From NCBI GenBank assembly GCA_049968235.1, contig JBMFRC010000006.1, positions 96,001 to 160,000 of the forward strand: a stretch of DNA of 64,000 bases, written 5' to 3'. Positions 5,033-26,870 of the stretch are shown piece by piece. Every line of letters starts with the position of its first letter. Position 1 is the stretch's first letter. The stretch comes from Candidatus Hydrogenedens sp. (GTDB lineage: Bacteria > Hydrogenedentota > Hydrogenedentia > Hydrogenedentales > Hydrogenedentaceae). Made by a program: the position numbers and the translations under genes. Under the pieces are notes generated by a model that was not told the origin of the DNA, did no database searches, and saw only the letters and a list, made by a program, of their open reading frames with translations.

Positions 5033-5560
5033 TTATTTACTTTTATGCAATTCTAGATATGTTTCTAATAGTTTTGCAGCTGCAATTTTATCAATAATAC
5101 CTCTCTGTTTTTTTTGTCCTACGCCGATGTTTGTCAACGCTCGTTGGGCTACAGTAGTTGTTAACCTTTCATCTATCTTTTCAATGTCTACATTAATTTT
5201 TCCTTTGATTTCTTCTATAAAACTTTTCACTTTTTCCGTTTGTATCCCTTCACTTCCATCCATTTTTAAGGGATAACCAATAATCACTTTTTTTACCTCT
5301 TTTTCTTTAATAATCTCCTGTATTGTTTTGATGAAATCTGTGGTTTTCCGCAAATCTATTACCATCAGCGGAAATGCAAAAATCCGGAGTGGGTCACTTA
5401 TGGCAAGTCCTATGCGAACTTCACCATAATCAATTGCAAGTATTCTTCCTTCTTCCAATTCAGGTTCCTTTCTTATTTTAATATTTAAACATTTTATTTT
5501 ATAATTGTATAAATCTGTTAATTTTTCACAAGAATTATAACGCTCTTGGGAGTTTTTCAT
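5033..5560 (-). CDS. ruvX: Putative pre-16S rRNA nuclease / Holliday-junction resolvase-like YqgF (RuvX)
   Basis: The protein contains ILAIDYGEVRIGLAISD and a C-terminal GYPLKMDGSEG...AAAKLLETYL. The annotated ATG at 5560 overlaps the divergent ATG at 5559. The real start is probably the TTG at about 5458 (aaggaa RBS upstream), which gives an about 141-aa protein. Confidence 0.75.
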   Translation of the reverse strand: MKNSQERYNSCEKLTDLYNYKIKCLNIKIRKEPELEEGRILAIDYGEVRIGLAISDPLRIFAFPLMVIDLRKTTDFIKTIQEIIKEKEVKKVIIGYPLKMDGSEGIQTEKVKSFIEEIKGKINVDIEKIDERLTTTVAQRALTNIGVGQKKQRGIIDKIAAAKLLETYLELHKSK

Positions 5561-6239
5561 GCATATCGAAGATAGACCTATTCATTTTTCAGTTGAATTG
5601 ATACACAATCCGACACCTATAAATAAAGAAATTTTACAAAGATTTTACTATGATTTAATCGGTTCACCTGTTTCCTATGACAGTATTGATTTTAGTTTTC
5701 CTATGCAAACACGATTTTACTCAACACGAGGGAATCGAAGCCAATCCATGGTTCTTTTTCTTTTAGACCGCAGTATAATTATAGAAGAATGGACAACCAT
5801 CACTTTTAATGAATTCCTGAATAAAGTTAATGAATTAGGACCCAAAATATTACAGGTTAGAAATCAAATGGCTTTTCTCGCTCATACTGGGACTTTACGC
5901 TCAACTTTTGCACTAACTCGATATGACGATGCAAAGTCTTTTATTGTAGAAAAATTATTAAATCAATCCCAGGAACTGATGATTGACCATTTTGGACGAC
6001 CCTTAGCAACAACGGGAATACGATTTGTTTTTCCGGAATCAAACGATACTCCCGGAATATATCATGTGCTAATTGAATCTTTTCGCCACAGTAAAAAAGA
6101 ACTATTTGTTGAAGTACGGGGGATTTTTGGAAGGCAACCTGTCTCGGCACAAAATATAGATCTGATAATTGAAAATTTAAAAGAAATGCGTGAATTCCTT
6201 ACTCAACGATTACAGCCTTATCTAAATCAATACGATTAA
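5559..6239 (+). CDS. Hypothetical protein (226 aa), no recognisable motif
   Basis: An intact ORF that fills the gap between ruvX and the AKR gene. No family recognised by eye. Confidence 0.45.
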   Translation: MHIEDRPIHFSVELIHNPTPINKEILQRFYYDLIGSPVSYDSIDFSFPMQTRFYSTRGNRSQSMVLFLLDRSIIIEEWTTITFNEFLNKVNELGPKILQVRNQMAFLAHTGTLRSTFALTRYDDAKSFIVEKLLNQSQELMIDHFGRPLATTGIRFVFPESNDTPGIYHVLIESFRHSKKELFVEVRGIFGRQPVSAQNIDLIIENLKEMREFLTQRLQPYLNQYD

Positions 6240-6242
6240 TCT

Positions 6243-7223
6243 TTACCATCCCCGTAAACGATATACATCAAGAGGTTCTCTATCTGTTGGTAAAGGAGGT
6301 TGATAAGACAGTTTTGAAATCTCTTCCCGTTGTTCAATCGATAGATTCAAATCAATACATGGTATTACCTCTTTGAATTGTTCCAGAGTTCTTGCCCCTA
6401 ACAAAATAGATGTAACAATAGGATTGCTTTTTACCCAACTTGCTGACAGAACAGCAGGTGAATAACCTTTCTCCTCCGCATAATGGACAAATTTTCGGGT
6501 TATTTCTTCATACATGGGGTTATTGTAACGCTGTTGATACATCTTATTTTCATTTAATCTCCCCTTCTCTCCTTTTAAATATTTTCCGGTCAACATACCT
6601 GCACCCAGAACATTATAGGGTATAACTGCCAGACTCTCATGTTTGGCTAAGGGTAATATTTCTACTTCTACCTGTCTTTTAATAAGGCTATACATAGGTT
6701 GGATACATATAACGGGTGCATAATGGAATTCTCTTGATACTGCAATTGTCTTCATTATTTGCCATGCAGAGAAGTTAGAAATACCCATATAAAGGACTTT
6801 TCCCTGCATGATTAATGTATGTACTGCTTCTAAAGAATACTCTATGGATGTGTATTCATCCCAATGATGGAGATAAAGTATATCAAGATATTCTGTATTT
6901 AATCTTCGTAAAGATTCTTCTACAGATTGTATAATGTTTTTCTTTGATAATCCTTCATTATTTATCCCTTTTTGGGAGGGGAAAAATACCTTCGTTGCAA
7001 GAATAATATCTTTTCGACTGTTACCTATCCATTCTCCTACAATCTTTTCTGTTTCTCCTTTATTGTAATTATGAGCAGTATCAAAGAAGTTTATACCAAT
7101 ATCATAGGCATAGTCCATAATTTTGAAACTAACATCTTTATCTGCCTCATTACCAAATGTCATTGTCCCCAGACATATCTCAGAAACTTTCAGACCTGAT
7201 TTCCCTAATGGAACATATTTCAT
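6243..7223 (-). CDS. Aldo/keto reductase (Tas/YajO-like NADP-dependent oxidoreductase)
   Basis: The protein has an N-terminal LGKSGLKVSEICLGTMTFG motif and carries AKR signature residues across its length of about 326 aa. Confidence 0.8.
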   Translation of the reverse strand: MKYVPLGKSGLKVSEICLGTMTFGNEADKDVSFKIMDYAYDIGINFFDTAHNYNKGETEKIVGEWIGNSRKDIILATKVFFPSQKGINNEGLSKKNIIQSVEESLRRLNTEYLDILYLHHWDEYTSIEYSLEAVHTLIMQGKVLYMGISNFSAWQIMKTIAVSREFHYAPVICIQPMYSLIKRQVEVEILPLAKHESLAVIPYNVLGAGMLTGKYLKGEKGRLNENKMYQQRYNNPMYEEITRKFVHYAEEKGYSPAVLSASWVKSNPIVTSILLGARTLEQFKEVIPCIDLNLSIEQREEISKLSYQPPLPTDREPLDVYRLRGW

Positions 7224-7263
7224 AGATTATCTCCCTCATAAAAAATCTTACATAAAGAGAAAG

Positions 7264-7337
7264 TGGCGGCGCAGGGATTCGAACCCCGGACACGCGGATT
7301 ATGATTCCGCTGCTCTAACCAACTGAGCTACGCCGCC
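7264..7337 (-). tRNA. tRNA with CAT anticodon (elongator tRNA-Met, or tRNA-Ile2 if lysidinylated)
   Basis: The reverse complement reads GGCGGCGTAGCTCAGTTGGTTAGAGCAGCGGAATCATAATCCGCGTGTCCGGGGTTCGAATCCCTGCGCCGCCA. It has a cloverleaf with a GTTCGAATC T-loop, the anticodon loop is ATCATAA (CAT), and CCA is encoded. Position 1:72 is a G-C pair, so it is not an initiator. Confidence 0.9.
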
Positions 7338-7504
7338 GTAAGGAATATTATTATAACAAATGTGTTTTTTATTATACAACAGTTCAAAAAATCTATACTT
7401 ATAACTTATGATGCGAATTCATATAATATTAGGTTTGAAGTCGTTTTATTCTACTTTTTTTTCTTATACTATTTAGAAATTTATTTAGGATTAGGAATAC
7501 GTAT

Positions 7505-8269
7505 ATGACGGTTATACTTTCCTGGAATGTTAATGGATTCCGTTCTGTCTTAAAAAAAGGATTTATGGAATGGCTTGAAACAGTTTCTCCTGATATTCTT
7601 TGTTTACAGGAAACTAAATTAAAGCATTCTGATATAAATGACAATTCTTTCCCGATACCTTCACAATATCACGCTTATTGGAGTTGTGCTAAAAAACCGG
7701 GCTACAGTGGAACCGCTTTTTTCTGTAAAAATAAACCCATTCAAATCATAGAAATAGAAGAACCTGATTTTACACATGAAGGGAGGGTGCAAATAGCTGA
7801 TTTCGGTGATTTTATCCTTTTTAATTCCTACTGGCCTAACAGTCAGGAAGAAAAAAAACGGCTTCCTTATAAACTCAGGTTTATTGATAAATTGCAGAAA
7901 ACACTTCTTGATTTCGTTAAGAAAAAGAAAAACATACTCGTATGTGGAGATTTTAATATAGCCCATACAGAGATTGACCTTGCTCGACCTAAAGAAAATG
8001 AAAATCATGCAGGTTATTATCCTGAAGAAAGAGAGGCTATGACAAATTTCTTACATTCAGGTTTTGTAGATACTTTTCGTATGTTTTGCAAAGAAGGAGG
8101 TCACTATACATGGTGGTCGTATCGAACAAATGCCAGGGCTCGGAATATTGGTTGGAGAATTGATTACCATGTCGTAAATGAATCGTTTAAGAAGCATATT
8201 AAACGGTCTTGGATTTTATCGGATGTTTCTGGGTCTGACCATTGTCCAATAGGTGTTGAAATTATTTAA
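7505..8269 (+). CDS. xth: Exodeoxyribonuclease III (AP endonuclease, Xth family)
   Basis: N-terminal ILSWNVNGFRS...LCLQETK, central NxYWPN and C-terminal SDHCP motifs are present, and the length of about 254 aa fits. Confidence 0.9.
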   Translation: MTVILSWNVNGFRSVLKKGFMEWLETVSPDILCLQETKLKHSDINDNSFPIPSQYHAYWSCAKKPGYSGTAFFCKNKPIQIIEIEEPDFTHEGRVQIADFGDFILFNSYWPNSQEEKKRLPYKLRFIDKLQKTLLDFVKKKKNILVCGDFNIAHTEIDLARPKENENHAGYYPEEREAMTNFLHSGFVDTFRMFCKEGGHYTWWSYRTNARARNIGWRIDYHVVNESFKKHIKRSWILSDVSGSDHCPIGVEII

Positions 8270-19918: not shown

Positions 19919-21499
19919 TTACATTCTATTCAAATATGGGCAGTTGTTTATATCTTTCTTCATTATTACAATGTCTTCTGCAAAATTCAAGCATGCGGGT
20001 GCTCCACAAACTCCACAATCATAGCCGGGTAATTTTTTATTTATTTTTTCTATCTCACTAAGTTTCTGAATCGCTATTCTTACATCCTCATCAAGTCGCA
20101 CACCTTTCCGTGAATTGATAGTGGATACACGGTATATTGCATCTATTTTTTGATTTTCATATTTATGCTTCTGTTCATTCCAGAATGAATCAAAAATTAT
20201 TTTTGACATGGTGGGTTCTTCACCCCAATATGGAGAGCCAAAACAGCCATTATAGCAAGCATACAATTCCACCATTTTTATAGGGACAGGTAATTGTTTC
20301 TTTTCTATATTTTCTAAAAACGTTTTTACCTGCTCTATTCCAGATATTGTTACTATGCCATCATTGCTATTTTTGTCAATATTTATATTGTGTATTTTAT
20401 CTTTTTGTTTTTTCTTATTTGTTTCTTTATATATATCCATTATCATTTCAAATGATTTCTGGGGAGAAATCATTTGAATAGAAATATCTAAATTTTTATT
20501 GTTATTAACTGCGGATATCTGAGCAGGACAAGAAGGTATAAAAAAGATATTTCGTCTTTCAGCGAAACTACTTATCGCTGTTTCTATAGGTCCCAAATAG
20601 GGAGCAATATTATCAATCAATGAAGGATATTCCGTTTGTATCCAGTATAGGACTGCGGGACAAACGGGTAATATTAAAGGGAAATTAATTTTTTCATTGT
20701 TCTCAATATATTTTTGTGTTTCTTTTTGTAATACTTCCTCCCATAATACTAATGGAAATACTTCCAATCCTTTTCTGTGGAATTTTTCTTCGAACTCATC
20801 CCATGAATAATAAAGTAGAATAGAAGCAATCCATGGTGAGGGGGCGATAAGTATTCCCTGCTTTTCCTTTTCATGATTTTTCTCGCAATCCTCCAAATCA
20901 AATACTTTCGTAGGACATATCTTTATACATTCATTACAATTGATGCAATGGTGAGACAAAATATACAAGTTTTTTTCATACAGTCTTATGGCTTTTGTGG
21001 GACATCTTGATAGACATTGCAAACATTTTTTACATTTCTCTGCCGTTACATGAACATAACTATCAACTTTTGAAAAATCTTTGTCTGACTTTACAAATAT
21101 AAGTATTTTTAACAAAGTGCCTGTGGGCTCGCTATGTATAACAAAGTAGTCTGAATTTTTCCTTATGTTAGGTAAACCCATTCCTGCTCCGAAACCCATT
21201 TCTCTTGCTTCGTCGGGTGCAGTAGAGTACCCTTCCTGAACAGCAAGGTCAATTCGGGGAATACCGGGTCCTGTATCCTTAACTACAATCTCAATTTTTT
21301 CATCATCTATTGTAAAATTAATTTCTCCTCCATAAGAATGGATAATAACATTCATCTCCGACTCATAAACGGCAATCATAATCTTTCGGATTATTTCGGG
21401 GGCTATTGCCAACTTACTTAATATTTCTTTAATTTTTGAAGAAACCTGTCCGCCACCTAAATAATCTCCTTTTTTTACTGGATATGAACCTGTAATCAT
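19919..21499 (-). CDS. Fusion protein: GHKL ATPase (anti-sigma/serine-kinase-like) + 2x[4Fe-4S] ferredoxin + [FeFe]-hydrogenase large-subunit-like domain with degenerate H-cluster motifs + RnfB-type Fe-S domain
   Basis: The N-terminus has HATPase motifs (DTGPGI, GFGAGMGLP). Two ferredoxin motifs follow: CKKCLQCLSRCP and CINCNECIKICP. The next domain carries PVCPAVLYW, IPSCPAQ and ELYACYNGCFGSP, which correspond loosely to the hydrogenase motifs TSCCP, MPCxxK and ExMACxxGC. The C-terminal DCGVCGAPACLNFAE...NCP matches the RnfB N-terminal Fe-S (Cx2Cx4C...C) domain. Confidence 0.65.
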   Translation of the reverse strand: MITGSYPVKKGDYLGGGQVSSKIKEILSKLAIAPEIIRKIMIAVYESEMNVIIHSYGGEINFTIDDEKIEIVVKDTGPGIPRIDLAVQEGYSTAPDEAREMGFGAGMGLPNIRKNSDYFVIHSEPTGTLLKILIFVKSDKDFSKVDSYVHVTAEKCKKCLQCLSRCPTKAIRLYEKNLYILSHHCINCNECIKICPTKVFDLEDCEKNHEKEKQGILIAPSPWIASILLYYSWDEFEEKFHRKGLEVFPLVLWEEVLQKETQKYIENNEKINFPLILPVCPAVLYWIQTEYPSLIDNIAPYLGPIETAISSFAERRNIFFIPSCPAQISAVNNNKNLDISIQMISPQKSFEMIMDIYKETNKKKQKDKIHNINIDKNSNDGIVTISGIEQVKTFLENIEKKQLPVPIKMVELYACYNGCFGSPYWGEEPTMSKIIFDSFWNEQKHKYENQKIDAIYRVSTINSRKGVRLDEDVRIAIQKLSEIEKINKKLPGYDCGVCGAPACLNFAEDIVIMKKDINNCPYLNRM

Positions 21500-21840
21500 T
21501 GTTGTATTTTTCCCTTTTCAAATATTCCATAAATGACACCACAGGTTTCATACATCTCTAAGGAAGATACTAAAAGAAAGGCTTTATTTTCTTCCGCACT
21601 TTCTATCAACTCATGGATAGGTTCTGAGTCTGTAATAAGACATATAGCAGGAACATCAAATATATTAAACAACTGAACTAGAGAGATATGATTTAAGTGT
21701 GTAATTATCAATGTGTTTTCGCTGGCTGAATGAATTAAATCACTAATTCGGTCCCCTGCAAAAACTTTCCCTATTTCTGTTTTTTCCCCTTTAACAACAA
21801 CCTCTATACCTAATACCTTTATAATATCCTGTATATCCAC
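21496..21840 (-). CDS. DRTGG-domain protein (first gene of operon)
   Basis: A 114-aa protein whose stop overlaps the start of the downstream fusion gene by 4 nt (ATGA). Confidence 0.6.
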   Translation of the reverse strand: MDIQDIIKVLGIEVVVKGEKTEIGKVFAGDRISDLIHSASENTLIITHLNHISLVQLFNIFDVPAICLITDSEPIHELIESAEENKAFLLVSSLEMYETCGVIYGIFEKGKIQQ

Positions 21841-24612: not shown

Positions 24613-24748
24613 GGCATATTCTCCTATTTATATTTAGTTGTATCTACTATTATTATATACCAATAATGACTGGAAGTGTTTCGTTTTTCTGATAAAAATA
24701 TTCAATGTCCAATATATTTTTGAAGACAATTAATTGGAATTTACGAAA

Positions 24749-25957
24749 TTAACCGAATATTTCTCTGGCTGTATAAAACAACTTCGGAATATCTAAATAA
24801 TAAGGACATTGCTCCATAGCAGTTCTAATCTGCTCTTTTGATAGATTTTCGATATATTTTTGAATATCTTTATAACAATAACGAGCCCAACTTTCATCTC
24901 CGTATCTCTTTGCATACAAAATACATCGCCAGACATCTTGCACATGTAGTTCTTCCTGCATACCTTTTTCACAATGCTGGTTACAACCGGCACAATAAAG
25001 ATGTTGTGTCCTTTCTGCTATATTTCTCAACTGTTGTTTTTCCAACTCTGTTAATTTCATAGGTGTTATCGCTGCATACGCATTTTCATGAACATGTTGT
25101 ATATTCCCCATTTGGGATGCAATACCTGCAATCCGTTCATCTTCCCACACTGCTTTCAATTTTGCCTGTATTTTTGTAAAATTTTTTGATGTCCATGGTA
25201 ATAATTCTTCGCCATCATCCGGAATACTACCTAATGTTTTAATTGCTACCAGCCCTATTCCTGCTTCTGTGCATGCATCTATTGCTCTATTTAAATTATC
25301 CTTTCCCATTTCACGAAAACTATACTTAAACATAATCACATCAATTCCTCCTCCTAGCTTGCTGGCTTTCATCATAAGTTCATGTGCATTCCCGTGATGA
25401 GCACTAAAACCAAAATAGCGTATTTTTCCCTCTTTTTTTAATTTATCCCCCATATCTATAAACTCTTTGTCCAAAAATCGTTCGTGCTTAACAATATGCA
25501 TGTAAAAAATATCTAAATAATCTGTCTCCAATTCCTGCAACGACAAATTTATATTCTCAACAAACTTTTCAGGAGTGGCTTTGTCCTCTGTTTGATGAAC
25601 TTTGGATGCAATTATCAACTTTTTTCTATCCCCAATTTGTTTAATAAAAGGAGCTATCGTTTTATGAGATTGTCCTTCTGCATACATTTGGGCAGTATCT
25701 AAATGATTTACCCCTAATTCGTATGCACGATGCAATCTTCTATCATATACCGGATCCAAATTTTGACAACATCCCATAATCAGGATAGGTGTTACAATAT
25801 CCGTTTTACCTAATTTCCTGACTGGAACCTTAGTTCCGGGAGGTATTTTCCAGGAACTCGGCTTATTTTCAGTCTCTTCCGAAAAACTTGTTTTAGTTAA
25901 TATGCTTGCTGTAGTTACTGTTTTAATTGTTTGTTCGATAAAATCTCTTCGATTCAT
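24749..25957 (-). CDS. Tat-signal aldo/keto reductase with Cys-rich C-terminal extension
   Basis: The N-terminus reads MNRRDFIEQ..., a twin-arginine RRxFI motif followed by a hydrophobic stretch. An AKR core follows (HLDTAQMY, GFSAH). The C-terminal 80 aa or so contain CAGCNQHC, C...C and CPYY. Confidence 0.7.
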   Translation of the reverse strand: MNRRDFIEQTIKTVTTASILTKTSFSEETENKPSSWKIPPGTKVPVRKLGKTDIVTPILIMGCCQNLDPVYDRRLHRAYELGVNHLDTAQMYAEGQSHKTIAPFIKQIGDRKKLIIASKVHQTEDKATPEKFVENINLSLQELETDYLDIFYMHIVKHERFLDKEFIDMGDKLKKEGKIRYFGFSAHHGNAHELMMKASKLGGGIDVIMFKYSFREMGKDNLNRAIDACTEAGIGLVAIKTLGSIPDDGEELLPWTSKNFTKIQAKLKAVWEDERIAGIASQMGNIQHVHENAYAAITPMKLTELEKQQLRNIAERTQHLYCAGCNQHCEKGMQEELHVQDVWRCILYAKRYGDESWARYCYKDIQKYIENLSKEQIRTAMEQCPYYLDIPKLFYTAREIFG

Positions 25958-26043: not shown

Positions 26044-26451
26044 ATGCCATTAATTCAATGGAACGATTCTTTAAGTGTCGGCATTCCTTCTATGGATACA
26101 CAACATCAAAAATTAATCAATATTATAAATCGACTACATGATGCTATGCGTGAAGGAAAAGGGAAAGATATTATATCCCCCGTATTAACGGAGTTACATA
26201 ATTATACCGTTACTCACTTTACAGCAGAAGAAAAATTAATGGAACAATGTAAATACAGTGGTCTTGCCGTTCAGAAACAACAACATAATAATTTTGTCAA
26301 TCAAATTAAAAAGTATCAGTCTGACTATGAAAAAGGTTCATTAACTCTTCCTCTTTCGGTTTCCAATTACTTAAAAGACTGGCTTATTAATCATATTCAG
26401 GGTCTGGATAAAAAATATGAGACATCTATGAAATCAGCAGGAATTAAATAG
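26044..26451 (+). CDS. Bacteriohemerythrin (hemerythrin-like di-iron protein), copy 1
   Basis: The protein contains MDTQHQ...HFTAEE...QHNNF...WLINHIQGLDKKY, a His/Glu/Asp iron-ligand pattern. Confidence 0.85.
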   Translation: MPLIQWNDSLSVGIPSMDTQHQKLINIINRLHDAMREGKGKDIISPVLTELHNYTVTHFTAEEKLMEQCKYSGLAVQKQQHNNFVNQIKKYQSDYEKGSLTLPLSVSNYLKDWLINHIQGLDKKYETSMKSAGIK

Positions 26452-26462
26452 GAGAAATATCT

Positions 26463-26870
26463 ATGGCTTTTCTCAATTGGAACGATAATTTTAATATTGG
26501 AATATTTCAAATTGATGCTCAACATAAAAATCTGGTTAATATTATTAATCAGTTATATGAAGCGATGAGTGTAGGGAAAGGAAAAGAAATTATTGGGAAA
26601 ATTGTAAAAGAATTGGCGGGTTATACAATTACTCATTTTGGCACTGAAGAGAAACTCATGCAGGAACATGGCTATCCTGAATTGCCTCAACATAAAAAAG
26701 AACATGAACTTTTTGTTAAAAAAGTTCAGGAATTTAATAATGAAATTCAAAAAGGGAATCTTATCATTGTTTCTAATGTTGCCAATTTCTTGAAGGAATG
26801 GTTGATAAAACATATTCAAGGAACCGATAAGAAATATGGTCCATTTTTAAAGGGAAAAGGGGTAAAATAG
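26463..26870 (+). CDS. Bacteriohemerythrin, copy 2 (tandem paralogue)
   Basis: It has the same length and motif pattern as copy 1 (IDAQHKN...HFGTEE...WLIKHIQGTDKKY) and starts 12 nt after copy 1 ends. Confidence 0.85.
   Translation: MAFLNWNDNFNIGIFQIDAQHKNLVNIINQLYEAMSVGKGKEIIGKIVKELAGYTITHFGTEEKLMQEHGYPELPQHKKEHELFVKKVQEFNNEIQKGNLIIVSNVANFLKEWLIKHIQGTDKKYGPFLKGKGVK

What the first reader, a model, noticed from the sequence alone, without database searches (positions are those of the whole stretch)
24749..25957. Twin-arginine-exported aldo/keto reductase with a Cys-rich C-terminal extension
The N-terminus MNRRDFIEQTIKTVTTASIL is a textbook Tat motif (RRxFI followed by a hydrophobic stretch). 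Tat export usually implies a folded, cofactor-loaded protein. A periplasmic NAD(P)H-dependent AKR would be odd, because there is no pyridine nucleotide in the periplasm. The about 80-aa C-terminal extension (CAGCNQHCEKG..C...C...CPYY) may bind a metal or Fe-S centre that provides an alternative electron input. Two bacteriohemerythrins (O2/redox sensing) lie immediately downstream on the opposite strand.
Basis: partly seen in the sequence, partly recalled or inferred. Interest (0 to 1): 0.5.

Follow-up and report, generated by a model that had tools for sequence, protein, structure and literature searches.

The report
Exported nickel-pincer-type aldo-keto reductase with iron-sulfur tail
This gene encodes an aldo-keto-reductase-fold enzyme with an export signal and an iron-sulfur tail, and it carries the two residues that in the newly described enzyme NphT hold a nickel-pincer cofactor instead of NAD(P)H, which would explain how it could work outside the cytoplasm.

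Summary
The ORF is real: minus strand, 24749-25957, 402 aa, under strong purifying selection. It has three parts.

- **Twin-arginine N-terminus.** R3 and R4 are invariant in 108 relatives. In this copy the hydrophobic stretch is short and weak.
- **AKR barrel.** It keeps the catalytic tetrad D87/Y92/K119/H154. It also carries invariant H187 and K240, which align exactly with H144 (Ni ligand) and K200 (covalent tether) of NphT (PDB 9YEB). NphT is the nickel-pincer-mononucleotide (NPMN) AKR described in 2026. The canonical NADP-binding residues are replaced.
- **Helical C-terminal domain, about 100 aa.** It descends from a 2x[4Fe-4S] ferredoxin-like domain and keeps exactly one cluster's ligand set: C322, C325, C329 and C384-P385.

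In 56 of 69 informative homologous loci from many phyla, the gene directly follows DUF6599, a Tat-signal DUF362 and a fused NapH-NapG polyferredoxin. In 11 loci larB/C/E genes are adjacent. The window copy and its closest relatives are orphans: none of these genes lies within the 64 kb.

The cofactor puzzle is best resolved by NPMN. The hemerythrin link is not supported. All evidence is computational.

The parts
24749..25957 (-). Complete CDS of 402 aa plus stop: Tat-type signal, AKR barrel and C-terminal Cys4 domain.
   Evidence: ORF listing and sequence; Pfam PF00248 at E = 7.6e-32; 1005 homologues; dN/dS 0.04.
25880..25957 (-). Residues 1-26, a putative twin-arginine signal. The n-region is MNRRDFIEQTIK, the short h-region is TVTTASILT, and the c-region is KTSFS.
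   Evidence: R3 and R4 are invariant in 108 sequences. The box reads [S/T/N]-R-R-x-F-[LI]-K in most members. The h-region is weak and Pfam TAT_signal gives no hit for this copy.
25058..25831 (-). Residues 43-300, an AKR (alpha/beta)8 barrel with the catalytic tetrad D87, Y92, K119 and H154.
25397..25405 (-). S185-A186-H187. H187 aligns with the Ni-coordinating H144 of NphT and S185 with T142. Canonical AKRs have Ser-Asn-Phe here.
   Evidence: Profile and pairwise alignments to 9YEB. H187 is invariant. The canonical AKR in the same window reads GISNF. Residue roles are from PMC13524815.
25238..25243 (-). I239-K240. K240 aligns with K200 of NphT, the covalent thioamide tether of NPMN. I239 aligns with I199.
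   Evidence: K240 is invariant and is kept in all 111 representatives scored (109 keep both H187 and K240).
24752..25057 (-). Residues 301-402, a helical C-terminal domain: a degenerate 2x[4Fe-4S] ferredoxin-like domain that keeps one cluster site.
   Evidence: Alignment with two-motif relatives. Those relatives hit Pfam Fer4 dicluster families at E down to 3.5e-12. The profile hits HdrC and the ACDS alpha ferredoxin domain.
24971..24994 (-). C322-x2-C325-x3-C329, the first three Cys of ferredoxin motif 1.
   Evidence: Conservation is 99%, 100% and 100%.
24803..24808 (-). C384-P385, the last Cys-Pro of ferredoxin motif 2 and the fourth ligand of the same cluster.
   Evidence: Invariant. Its position relative to the two-motif relatives is shown.

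Best explanation
The gene encodes a cofactor-loaded enzyme that is probably exported to the periplasm.

**Steps shown by sequence analysis**
- It is an AKR-fold barrel with an intact acid/base tetrad (D87, Y92, K119, H154).
- It carries the His/Lys pair (H187, K240) that defines the NphT type of AKR.
- It has an invariant twin-arginine N-terminus.
- It has a C-terminal domain whose four invariant Cys are the ligand set of one [4Fe-4S] cluster.

**Inferred mechanism**
1. In the cytoplasm the protein receives a [4Fe-4S] cluster and a nickel-pincer mononucleotide (NPMN). NPMN is tethered to K240 and its Ni is bound by H187, in place of NAD(P)H.
2. Because both cofactors must be loaded before export, the folded protein leaves by the Tat pathway.
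3. Outside, the tetrad and NPMN move a hydride between alcohol and carbonyl substrates, probably sugar-like ones.
4. The Fe-S cluster connects the NPMN site to an electron-transfer partner.

In most relatives that partner is a fused NapH-NapG quinol-dehydrogenase-like membrane protein. It is encoded directly upstream, together with a Tat-signal DUF362 protein and a membrane-anchored DUF6599 protein. The window copy is an orphan paralogue lineage within Hydrogenedentota. Its partners, if any, are encoded elsewhere, or it works alone as a hydride shuttle.
For: **AKR fold and tetrad:**

**NphT motif**
- The family profile hits 9YEB at E = 7.4e-20.
- In the pairwise alignment, D87/Y92/K119/H154/S185/H187/I239/K240 map to NphT D47/Y52/K75/H106/T142/H144/I199/K200.
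- The roles of those residues come from PMC13524815.
- H187 and K240 are invariant in 108 sequences and kept in 109 of 111 representatives at 50% clustering.
- NADP-binding residues are replaced. Asn becomes A186. The IPKxGR Lys and Arg become Q282 and N285 (alignment). A canonical AKR in the same window keeps them.

**lar genes**
- larB, larC and larE, all above the NCBIfam cut-offs, lie next to homologues in 11 loci from at least three phyla. They sit upstream in some and downstream in others.
- No LarA-type gene is among the large flanking genes.

**Fe-S domain:**

**Tat motif:**

**Partner module**
- NapH-NapG lies upstream on the same strand in 56 of 69 loci, with gaps mostly 33-400 bp.
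- The NapH and NapG halves are identified.
- DUF362 carries its own RR motif.
Against: - No larB/C/E, NapH-NapG, DUF362, DUF6599, Tat or nickel-transport gene is in the 64 kb window. None lies within 7-10 kb of the gene (as far as each contig reaches) in the 50-87% identical relatives.
- This copy's signal h-region is short and interrupted by Lys. Pfam TAT_signal and Fer4 models do not hit the query itself.
- Identity to NphT is only 25%, and the last third of NphT is not aligned. The size of the cofactor cavity could not be checked because no coordinates are returned.
- The isolated C-terminal domain model found no significant fold match.
- Electron transfer between an Fe-S cluster and a nickel-pincer cofactor has no precedent.
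- DUF362, which belongs to the LarA clan (PMC11770544), could be the NPMN user that explains the lar neighbours.
Confidence: 0.55

Rival explanations
1. It is a Tat-exported AKR that carries a tightly bound, non-exchanging NAD(P) as prosthetic group. Glucose-fructose oxidoreductase of Zymomonas does this. The Fe-S domain would be an accessory.
For: The AKR fold and full tetrad are present. The C-terminal E291-N292 of the nucleotide motif is kept. GFOR is an established precedent for exporting a bound nicotinamide cofactor by Tat (own knowledge).
Against: The residues that bind the nicotinamide carboxamide and the 2'-phosphate/pyrophosphate are replaced. The invariant H187/K240 pair matches the NPMN ligands. 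lar genes neighbour the homologues.
Confidence: 0.15
2. This orphan copy works alone as a redox-neutral periplasmic hydride shuttle, with NphT-like disproportionation or transhydrogenation of sugars. Its Fe-S cluster would be structural or regulatory rather than a wire to a respiratory partner.
For: NphT needs no external electron partner. No partner genes lie near this copy or its closest relatives. Orphan copies sit next to glycan and lipid hydrolases: GH106 28 bp upstream on the same strand, GH127, and a BNR sialidase-like gene plus a ceramidase.
Against: The four Cys remain invariant in the orphan clade. One MAG holds both a module-linked copy and an orphan copy (L058 and L090), so partners may act in trans.
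Confidence: 0.25
3. It is an ordinary cytoplasmic NADPH-dependent AKR. The RR pair would be incidental and the Cys would bind zinc or nothing.
For: Pfam TAT_signal and Fer4 models do not hit the query. This copy has a weak h-region.
Against: RR is invariant over 108 sequences and is followed by F and [LI]. The Cys pattern is homologous to Fer4-positive relatives. The clade-specific pair C345/C361 co-occurs 10 out of 10 times, which would suit a periplasmic disulfide.
Confidence: 0.07
4. The AKR forms a functional O2- or redox-sensing unit with the two neighbouring hemerythrins.
For: The divergent arrangement, with an 86 bp gap, is kept in relatives down to 66% identity.
Against: Hemerythrin copy number is 2, 1 or 0 among relatives of 67-86% identity. 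Hemerythrins are absent in all more distant loci. The whole neighbourhood is syntenic, so adjacency may only reflect relatedness.
Confidence: 0.05

Closest known systems
NphT, NPMN-dependent hydride transferase (PDB 9YEB; Semersky et al., Nat Chem 2026, PMC13524815)
   Same: It has the AKR barrel and the same catalytic tetrad. The same His (Ni ligand) and Lys (covalent tether) sit at aligned positions, with Thr/Ser and Ile neighbours. lar genes neighbour the relatives.
   Different: NphT is 291 aa. The paper describes no export signal and no Fe-S domain, and shows NphT to be a monomeric redox-neutral shuttle; it never mentions Tat, periplasm, ferredoxin or Fe-S. This protein adds a Tat signal and a Cys4 domain, and in relatives a NapH-NapG/DUF362/DUF6599 operon. 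Identity is only 25% over 214 aligned columns.
[quoted passage not shown]
   Same: Fold, tetrad and overall barrel.
   Different: They have Ser-Asn-Phe, Gln and IPKxGR nucleotide-binding residues where this family has S-A/C-H, K/R and S-x-M-x-N. They lack the Lys at the K240 position, a signal peptide and a Cys domain.
Helical 2x[4Fe-4S] ferredoxin-like domains (HdrC, the C-terminal domain of SdhB, the ACDS alpha ferredoxin domain)
   Same: CxxCxxC...CP motifs separated by helices. The profile matches 8RVV_C at E = 0.003 and ACDS alpha at E = 7e-5.
   Different: Only one of the two ligand sets survives here. Motif 1 has a one-residue insertion (CxxCxxxC). No Pfam Fer4 model hits the query.
NapG/NapH quinol dehydrogenase of periplasmic nitrate reductase systems
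   Same: In relatives the upstream gene matches NapH over residues 200-308 and NapG over residues 323-529, including the RPPG motif.
   Different: The two halves are fused into one 550 aa protein. No NapA, NapB or NapC is present. The apparent client is the AKR-Fe-S protein. The gene is absent from this window.
Glucose-fructose oxidoreductase (GFOR) of Zymomonas mobilis
   Same: It is a periplasmic, Tat-exported sugar oxidoreductase that carries its hydride cofactor with it (own knowledge).
   Different: It has a Rossmann-fold Gfo/Idh/MocA protein, non-covalently bound NADP and no Fe-S cluster.

Membership tests
Aldo-keto reductase superfamily (PF00248) | (alpha/beta)8 barrel matching the family model | tested here: met
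Aldo-keto reductase superfamily (PF00248) | Catalytic tetrad Asp-Tyr-Lys-His | tested here: met
   D87, Y92, K119 and H154 are invariant in 108 sequences.
Aldo-keto reductase superfamily (PF00248) | NAD(P)(H)-binding residues (Ser-Asn, Gln, IPKS..R..EN) | tested here: not met
   Asn becomes A186, Lys becomes Q282 and Arg becomes N285. Only S185, E291 and N292 are kept (alignments; control AKR).
NphT-type NPMN-dependent AKRs | His/Lys motif (Ni-coordinating His144, covalent Lys200) | tested here: met
   H187 and K240 align to them in both the profile and the pairwise alignments. Both are invariant.
NphT-type NPMN-dependent AKRs | Neighbourhood of larB, larC and larE without larA | tested here: inconclusive
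   Met for homologues in 11 loci. Not met in this window or in the flanks of the closest relatives. The rest of the genome was not available.
NphT-type NPMN-dependent AKRs | Short cofactor cavity that excludes the AMP moiety | not testable with these tools
   Model coordinates are not returned, and 9YEB is not in the fold libraries.
NphT-type NPMN-dependent AKRs | Covalent NPMN adduct (+450 Da) and Ni content | not testable with these tools
   This needs protein mass spectrometry after co-expression with LarB/C/E.
Tat substrates | S/T-R-R-x-F-L-K box near the N-terminus | tested here: met
   The box reads N-R-R-D-F-I-E. RR is invariant and the F and L/I positions are conserved.
Tat substrates | Uncharged, moderately hydrophobic h-region of about 12-20 residues, then a c-region | tested here: inconclusive
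   Only 9 uncharged residues lie between K12 and K22. The hydropathy is 0.88 against a family median of 1.5. Pfam TAT_signal gives no hit. Relatives at 66-74% identity have normal h-regions.
Tat substrates | Demonstrated Tat-dependent export | not testable with these tools
   No TatP or SignalP is available. No tat genes are in the window.
[4Fe-4S] ferredoxin-like domains | Four Cys in CxxCxxC...CP arrangement that ligate one cluster | tested here: met
   C322, C325, C329 and C384-P385 correspond to Cys I-III of motif 1 and Cys IV of motif 2 in the two-motif relatives.
[4Fe-4S] ferredoxin-like domains | Match to a Fer4 family model or to a solved Fe-S fold | tested here: inconclusive
   The query itself gives no Pfam Fer4 hit. 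Its two-motif relatives hit at E = 3.5e-12. The profile hits HdrC at E = 0.003. The isolated domain model has no Foldseek match.
DUF6599 / DUF362 / NapH-NapG / AKR-Fe-S four-gene module | AKR gene directly downstream of the NapH-NapG fusion gene | tested here: not met
   Absent from the window and from relatives of 50-87% identity. Present in 56 of 69 other loci.

The most novel reading that the evidence does not exclude
This family is the catalytic subunit of an undescribed periplasmic oxidoreductase. A covalently bound nickel-pincer nucleotide takes a hydride from, or gives it to, a sugar-like substrate. The nucleotide is then recycled one electron at a time through the enzyme's own [4Fe-4S] cluster and a fused NapH-NapG polyferredoxin to the membrane quinone pool. 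Tat-exported DUF362 (LarA clan) and DUF6599 would be further subunits. That would be the first exported nickel-pincer enzyme and the first one wired into an electron-transport chain.
Probability: 0.3. Interest if true: 0.85.

Novelty: new variant of a known kind. Interest (0 to 1): 0.65.

Why it matters
Nickel-pincer AKRs were first shown in 2026, with one cytoplasmic, redox-neutral example. If this reading is right, a large and widespread branch of them is different in three ways.
- It is exported.
- It carries an iron-sulfur cluster.
- It is usually encoded with a quinol-dehydrogenase-like membrane protein.

The branch occurs in Hydrogenedentota, Planctomycetota, Acidobacteriota, Gammaproteobacteria, SAR324 and Gemmatimonadota. 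This would extend nickel-pincer chemistry to the periplasm and possibly to respiration. It also gives a concrete answer to how an AKR can work where there is no NAD(P)H. Finally, it flags DUF362 and DUF6599 as candidates for function assignment. The His/Lys, Cys4 and RR features give simple mutational tests.

Tried and rejected
- **Pfam and NCBIfam on the query.** Only the AKR domain was found, with no TAT_signal or Fer4 hit.
- **Foldseek on the isolated C-terminal domain model** (pLDDT 79). There was no significant match; the best E was 2.6, to 14-3-3 proteins. This gives no structural support for the Fe-S fold, and the Cys loop was modelled with low confidence.
- **Cys geometry.** It could not be measured because model coordinates are not exposed.
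- **DUF362 against PDB sequences.** No hit.
- **Literature searches** for AKR + twin-arginine + iron-sulfur, COG1453, DUF6599 and AKR + NapH. Nothing relevant was found; the last search was spoiled by 'naph...' word matches.
- **Search for the NapH-NapG gene in the query's own lineage.** The 120 listed hits, out of more than 7079, could not be tied to those genomes. Whether the organism has the module or lar genes elsewhere remains open.
- **Hemerythrin coupling.** Rejected as unsupported.
- **A fifth conserved module gene.** None was found by clustering all flanking ORFs.
- **Promoter and terminator scan.** Not above the shuffled background for promoters, and no terminator-like site on the gene's strand, so uninformative.

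Full report
**1. The observation**

The window has an ORF on the minus strand from ATG 25957 to the stop at 24749-24751, encoding 402 aa. The quoted N-terminal and C-terminal strings are correct.

M1 is the only usable start. The next start codons are M61 and L67, which lie inside the conserved first strand. An AAGG lies upstream of the ATG.

The gene's GC content (0.352) equals that of the window. Its dN/dS against an 86%-identical orthologue is 0.04. It is therefore a native gene under selection.

The closest database proteins are 87-66% identical 'aldo/keto reductases' of Candidatus Hydrogenedens / Hydrogenedentota.

**2. The barrel**

- Pfam finds only PF00248, over residues 74-244.
- An AlphaFold2 model built on 108 sequences has a mean pLDDT of 88.
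- The tetrad D87, Y92, K119 and H154 is invariant.

**3. The C-terminal domain**

Residues 301-402 are helical. Of the six Cys, C322, C325, C329 and C384 (followed by P385) are invariant or 99% conserved. C345 and C361 occur only in the ten closest sequences, and always together.

More distant relatives (25-30% identity) carry two complete CxxCxxCxxxCP motifs in the same place. They hit the Pfam Fer4 dicluster families at E down to 3.5e-12.

The query's four Cys align with Cys I-III of motif 1 and with the Cys-Pro of motif 2. In dicluster ferredoxins that set ligates one cluster (established knowledge). The second cluster's ligands are gone.

A profile of the domain hits HdrC at E = 0.003 and the ferredoxin domain of ACDS alpha at E = 7e-5. 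A model of the isolated domain gave no significant fold match, so structural confirmation is missing.

**4. The signal**

R3 and R4 are invariant in 108 sequences. The box is [S/T/N]-R-R-x-F-[L/I]-K in most members. Nearly all full-length representatives down to 25% identity carry it.

This copy is atypical:
- E replaces the consensus K.
- K12 and K22 bracket only nine uncharged residues.
- The best 12-residue hydropathy is 0.88, against a family median of 1.5.
- Pfam TAT_signal gives no hit at E <= 10.

Relatives of 66-74% identity have ordinary h-regions. Export is well supported for the family and likely but unproven for this protein.

**5. The cofactor**

A neighbourhood analysis led to an answer.

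- In 11 homologous loci, larB, larC and larE lie next to the gene cluster. All three are NCBIfam equivalogs above their cut-offs. They sit upstream in Gammaproteobacteria and downstream in Acidobacteriota and another lineage.
- No LarA-type gene is among the large neighbouring genes.
- Semersky et al. (Nat Chem 2026, PMC13524815) used exactly this kind of adjacency to discover NphT (PDB 9YEB). NphT is an AKR that binds nickel-pincer mononucleotide covalently through K200, with Ni on H144. It keeps the AKR tetrad and shuttles hydride between sugars without NAD(P)H.
- The family profile hits 9YEB at E = 7.4e-20.
- A pairwise alignment of the query places D87/Y92/K119/H154/S185/H187/I239/K240 on NphT D47/Y52/K75/H106/T142/H144/I199/K200.
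- H187 and K240 are invariant and kept in 109 of 111 representatives.
- Canonical AKRs have Asn-Phe and Tyr-Ser at these positions. One such AKR lies in this same window at 6243-7223.
- The Lys and Arg of the IPKxGR nucleotide motif are Q282 and N285 here.

The paper never mentions Tat, periplasm, ferredoxin or Fe-S. It is the only held paper that links nickel pincer to AKRs.

**6. The partners in relatives**

Of 69 genome loci with enough upstream sequence, 56 have a roughly 550 aa gene upstream on the same strand, usually 33-400 bp away. These loci come from Hydrogenedentota, Planctomycetota, Acidobacteriota, Gammaproteobacteria, SAR324, Gemmatimonadota and others.

The N-terminal half of that gene matches NapH and its C-terminal half matches NapG. 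An R-R plus a membrane segment and an RPPG motif lie between the halves.

Two further genes precede it. One is a DUF362 protein with its own RR signal; DUF362 shares a Pfam clan with the LarA N-terminal domain (PMC11770544). The other is a DUF6599 protein with an N-terminal membrane anchor. No fifth conserved gene exists.

By analogy with NapGH (established knowledge), I infer that the fusion links the quinone pool to the exported Fe-S AKR. The direction of electron flow is unknown.

**7. The window copy is an orphan**

None of these genes, and no lar, tat or nickel-transport gene, is in the 64 kb window. None lies within 7-10 kb of the gene (as far as each contig reaches) in relatives of 50-87% identity.

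All 13 unlinked loci are Hydrogenedentota-like. One MAG has both a linked and an unlinked copy (L058 and L090).

Unlinked copies sit near glycan and lipid hydrolases:
- GH106, 28 bp upstream on the same strand.
- GH127.
- A BNR sialidase-like gene and a ceramidase in this window and its syntenic relatives.

This weakly suggests sugar-type substrates, as for NphT.

**8. Hemerythrins**

The two hemerythrin genes are divergent from the AKR gene, not downstream of it. Their number next to the gene is 2, 1 or 0 among relatives of 66-86% identity. They are absent elsewhere. A functional link is not supported.

**9. Verdict**

The sequence features are real. The Tat and Fe-S interpretation holds at family level. 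The best explanation is an exported nickel-pincer-type AKR with one [4Fe-4S] cluster.

My confidence is about 0.55 for the whole chain. It is higher for the fold and the Fe-S cluster. It is lower for export of this copy and for electron wiring.

This is a new variant of a kind described only in 2026. Everything beyond sequence analysis remains to be tested.

Noticed in passing
window 6243-7223 (-): A second, canonical AKR of 326 aa with a full-length PF00248 match (E = 2.3e-70). It has no signal and no Cys tail, and it keeps the canonical GISNF, Gln and nucleotide-motif residues. It served as an internal control for the residues replaced in the target.
   Followed up: partly
window 26044-26451 (+) and 26463-26870 (+): Two tandem 135 aa hemerythrin genes, divergently transcribed from the AKR gene across an 86 bp gap. 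The copy number next to the AKR gene is 2, 1 or 0 in relatives of 66-86% identity.
   Followed up: partly
window 24875-24877 and 24923-24925 (-) (C361, C345): A Cys pair on neighbouring helices of the C-terminal domain. It occurs only in the query and its nine closest relatives, and always together (10 of 10). This could be a disulfide suited to an exported protein, or extra metal ligands.
   Followed up: partly
L007 4259-5941 (same gene in L019 and about 55 other loci): NapH and NapG are fused into one polypeptide. A conserved Arg pair and a membrane segment sit before the NapG-like half, which would require a cofactor-loaded domain to cross the membrane from inside a polytopic protein. More than 7000 database proteins match at E <= 1e-50.
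   Followed up: partly
L007 3219-4262; L008 3316-4362; L009 796-1932: DUF362 proteins of the module carry their own twin-arginine motif and very highly conserved motifs (KPNVAFDR, VKDHNLC, RNQFHQ). DUF362 shares a Pfam clan with the LarA N-terminal domain, so it could itself be a nickel-pincer protein. No solved homologue was found by sequence.
   Followed up: partly
L009 3641-7215: Three AKR paralogues in tandem follow the module. The middle one (307 aa) lacks the Cys domain and appears to have lost the tetrad Lys and His (TSQS and MFLG in place of TSK and FMH).
   Followed up: no
window 19919-21499 (-) with 21496-21840 (-): A 526 aa protein that, by its orthologue in L001, combines an HATPase_c_2 anti-sigma-type kinase domain with Fer4 and PF04060 Fe-S domains. 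A 114 aa protein with no Pfam match lies immediately upstream of it. The pair is syntenic in all close relatives.
   Followed up: no
L001 9210-10145 versus window 24613-24748: Relatives of 84% identity have a UvdE/AP_endonuc_2 gene inserted between the AKR gene and the Hsp20 gene. The window has only a 136 bp spacer there.
   Followed up: no
P0019 locus, genes at 5117-6973 and 7001-8215 (no DNA held); L004 9251-12079: Orphan Hydrogenedentota copies of the AKR gene lie next to glycoside hydrolases. One has GH106 28 bp upstream on the same strand, and another has GH127 adjacent on the opposite strand. This hints at sugar-derived substrates.
   Followed up: partly
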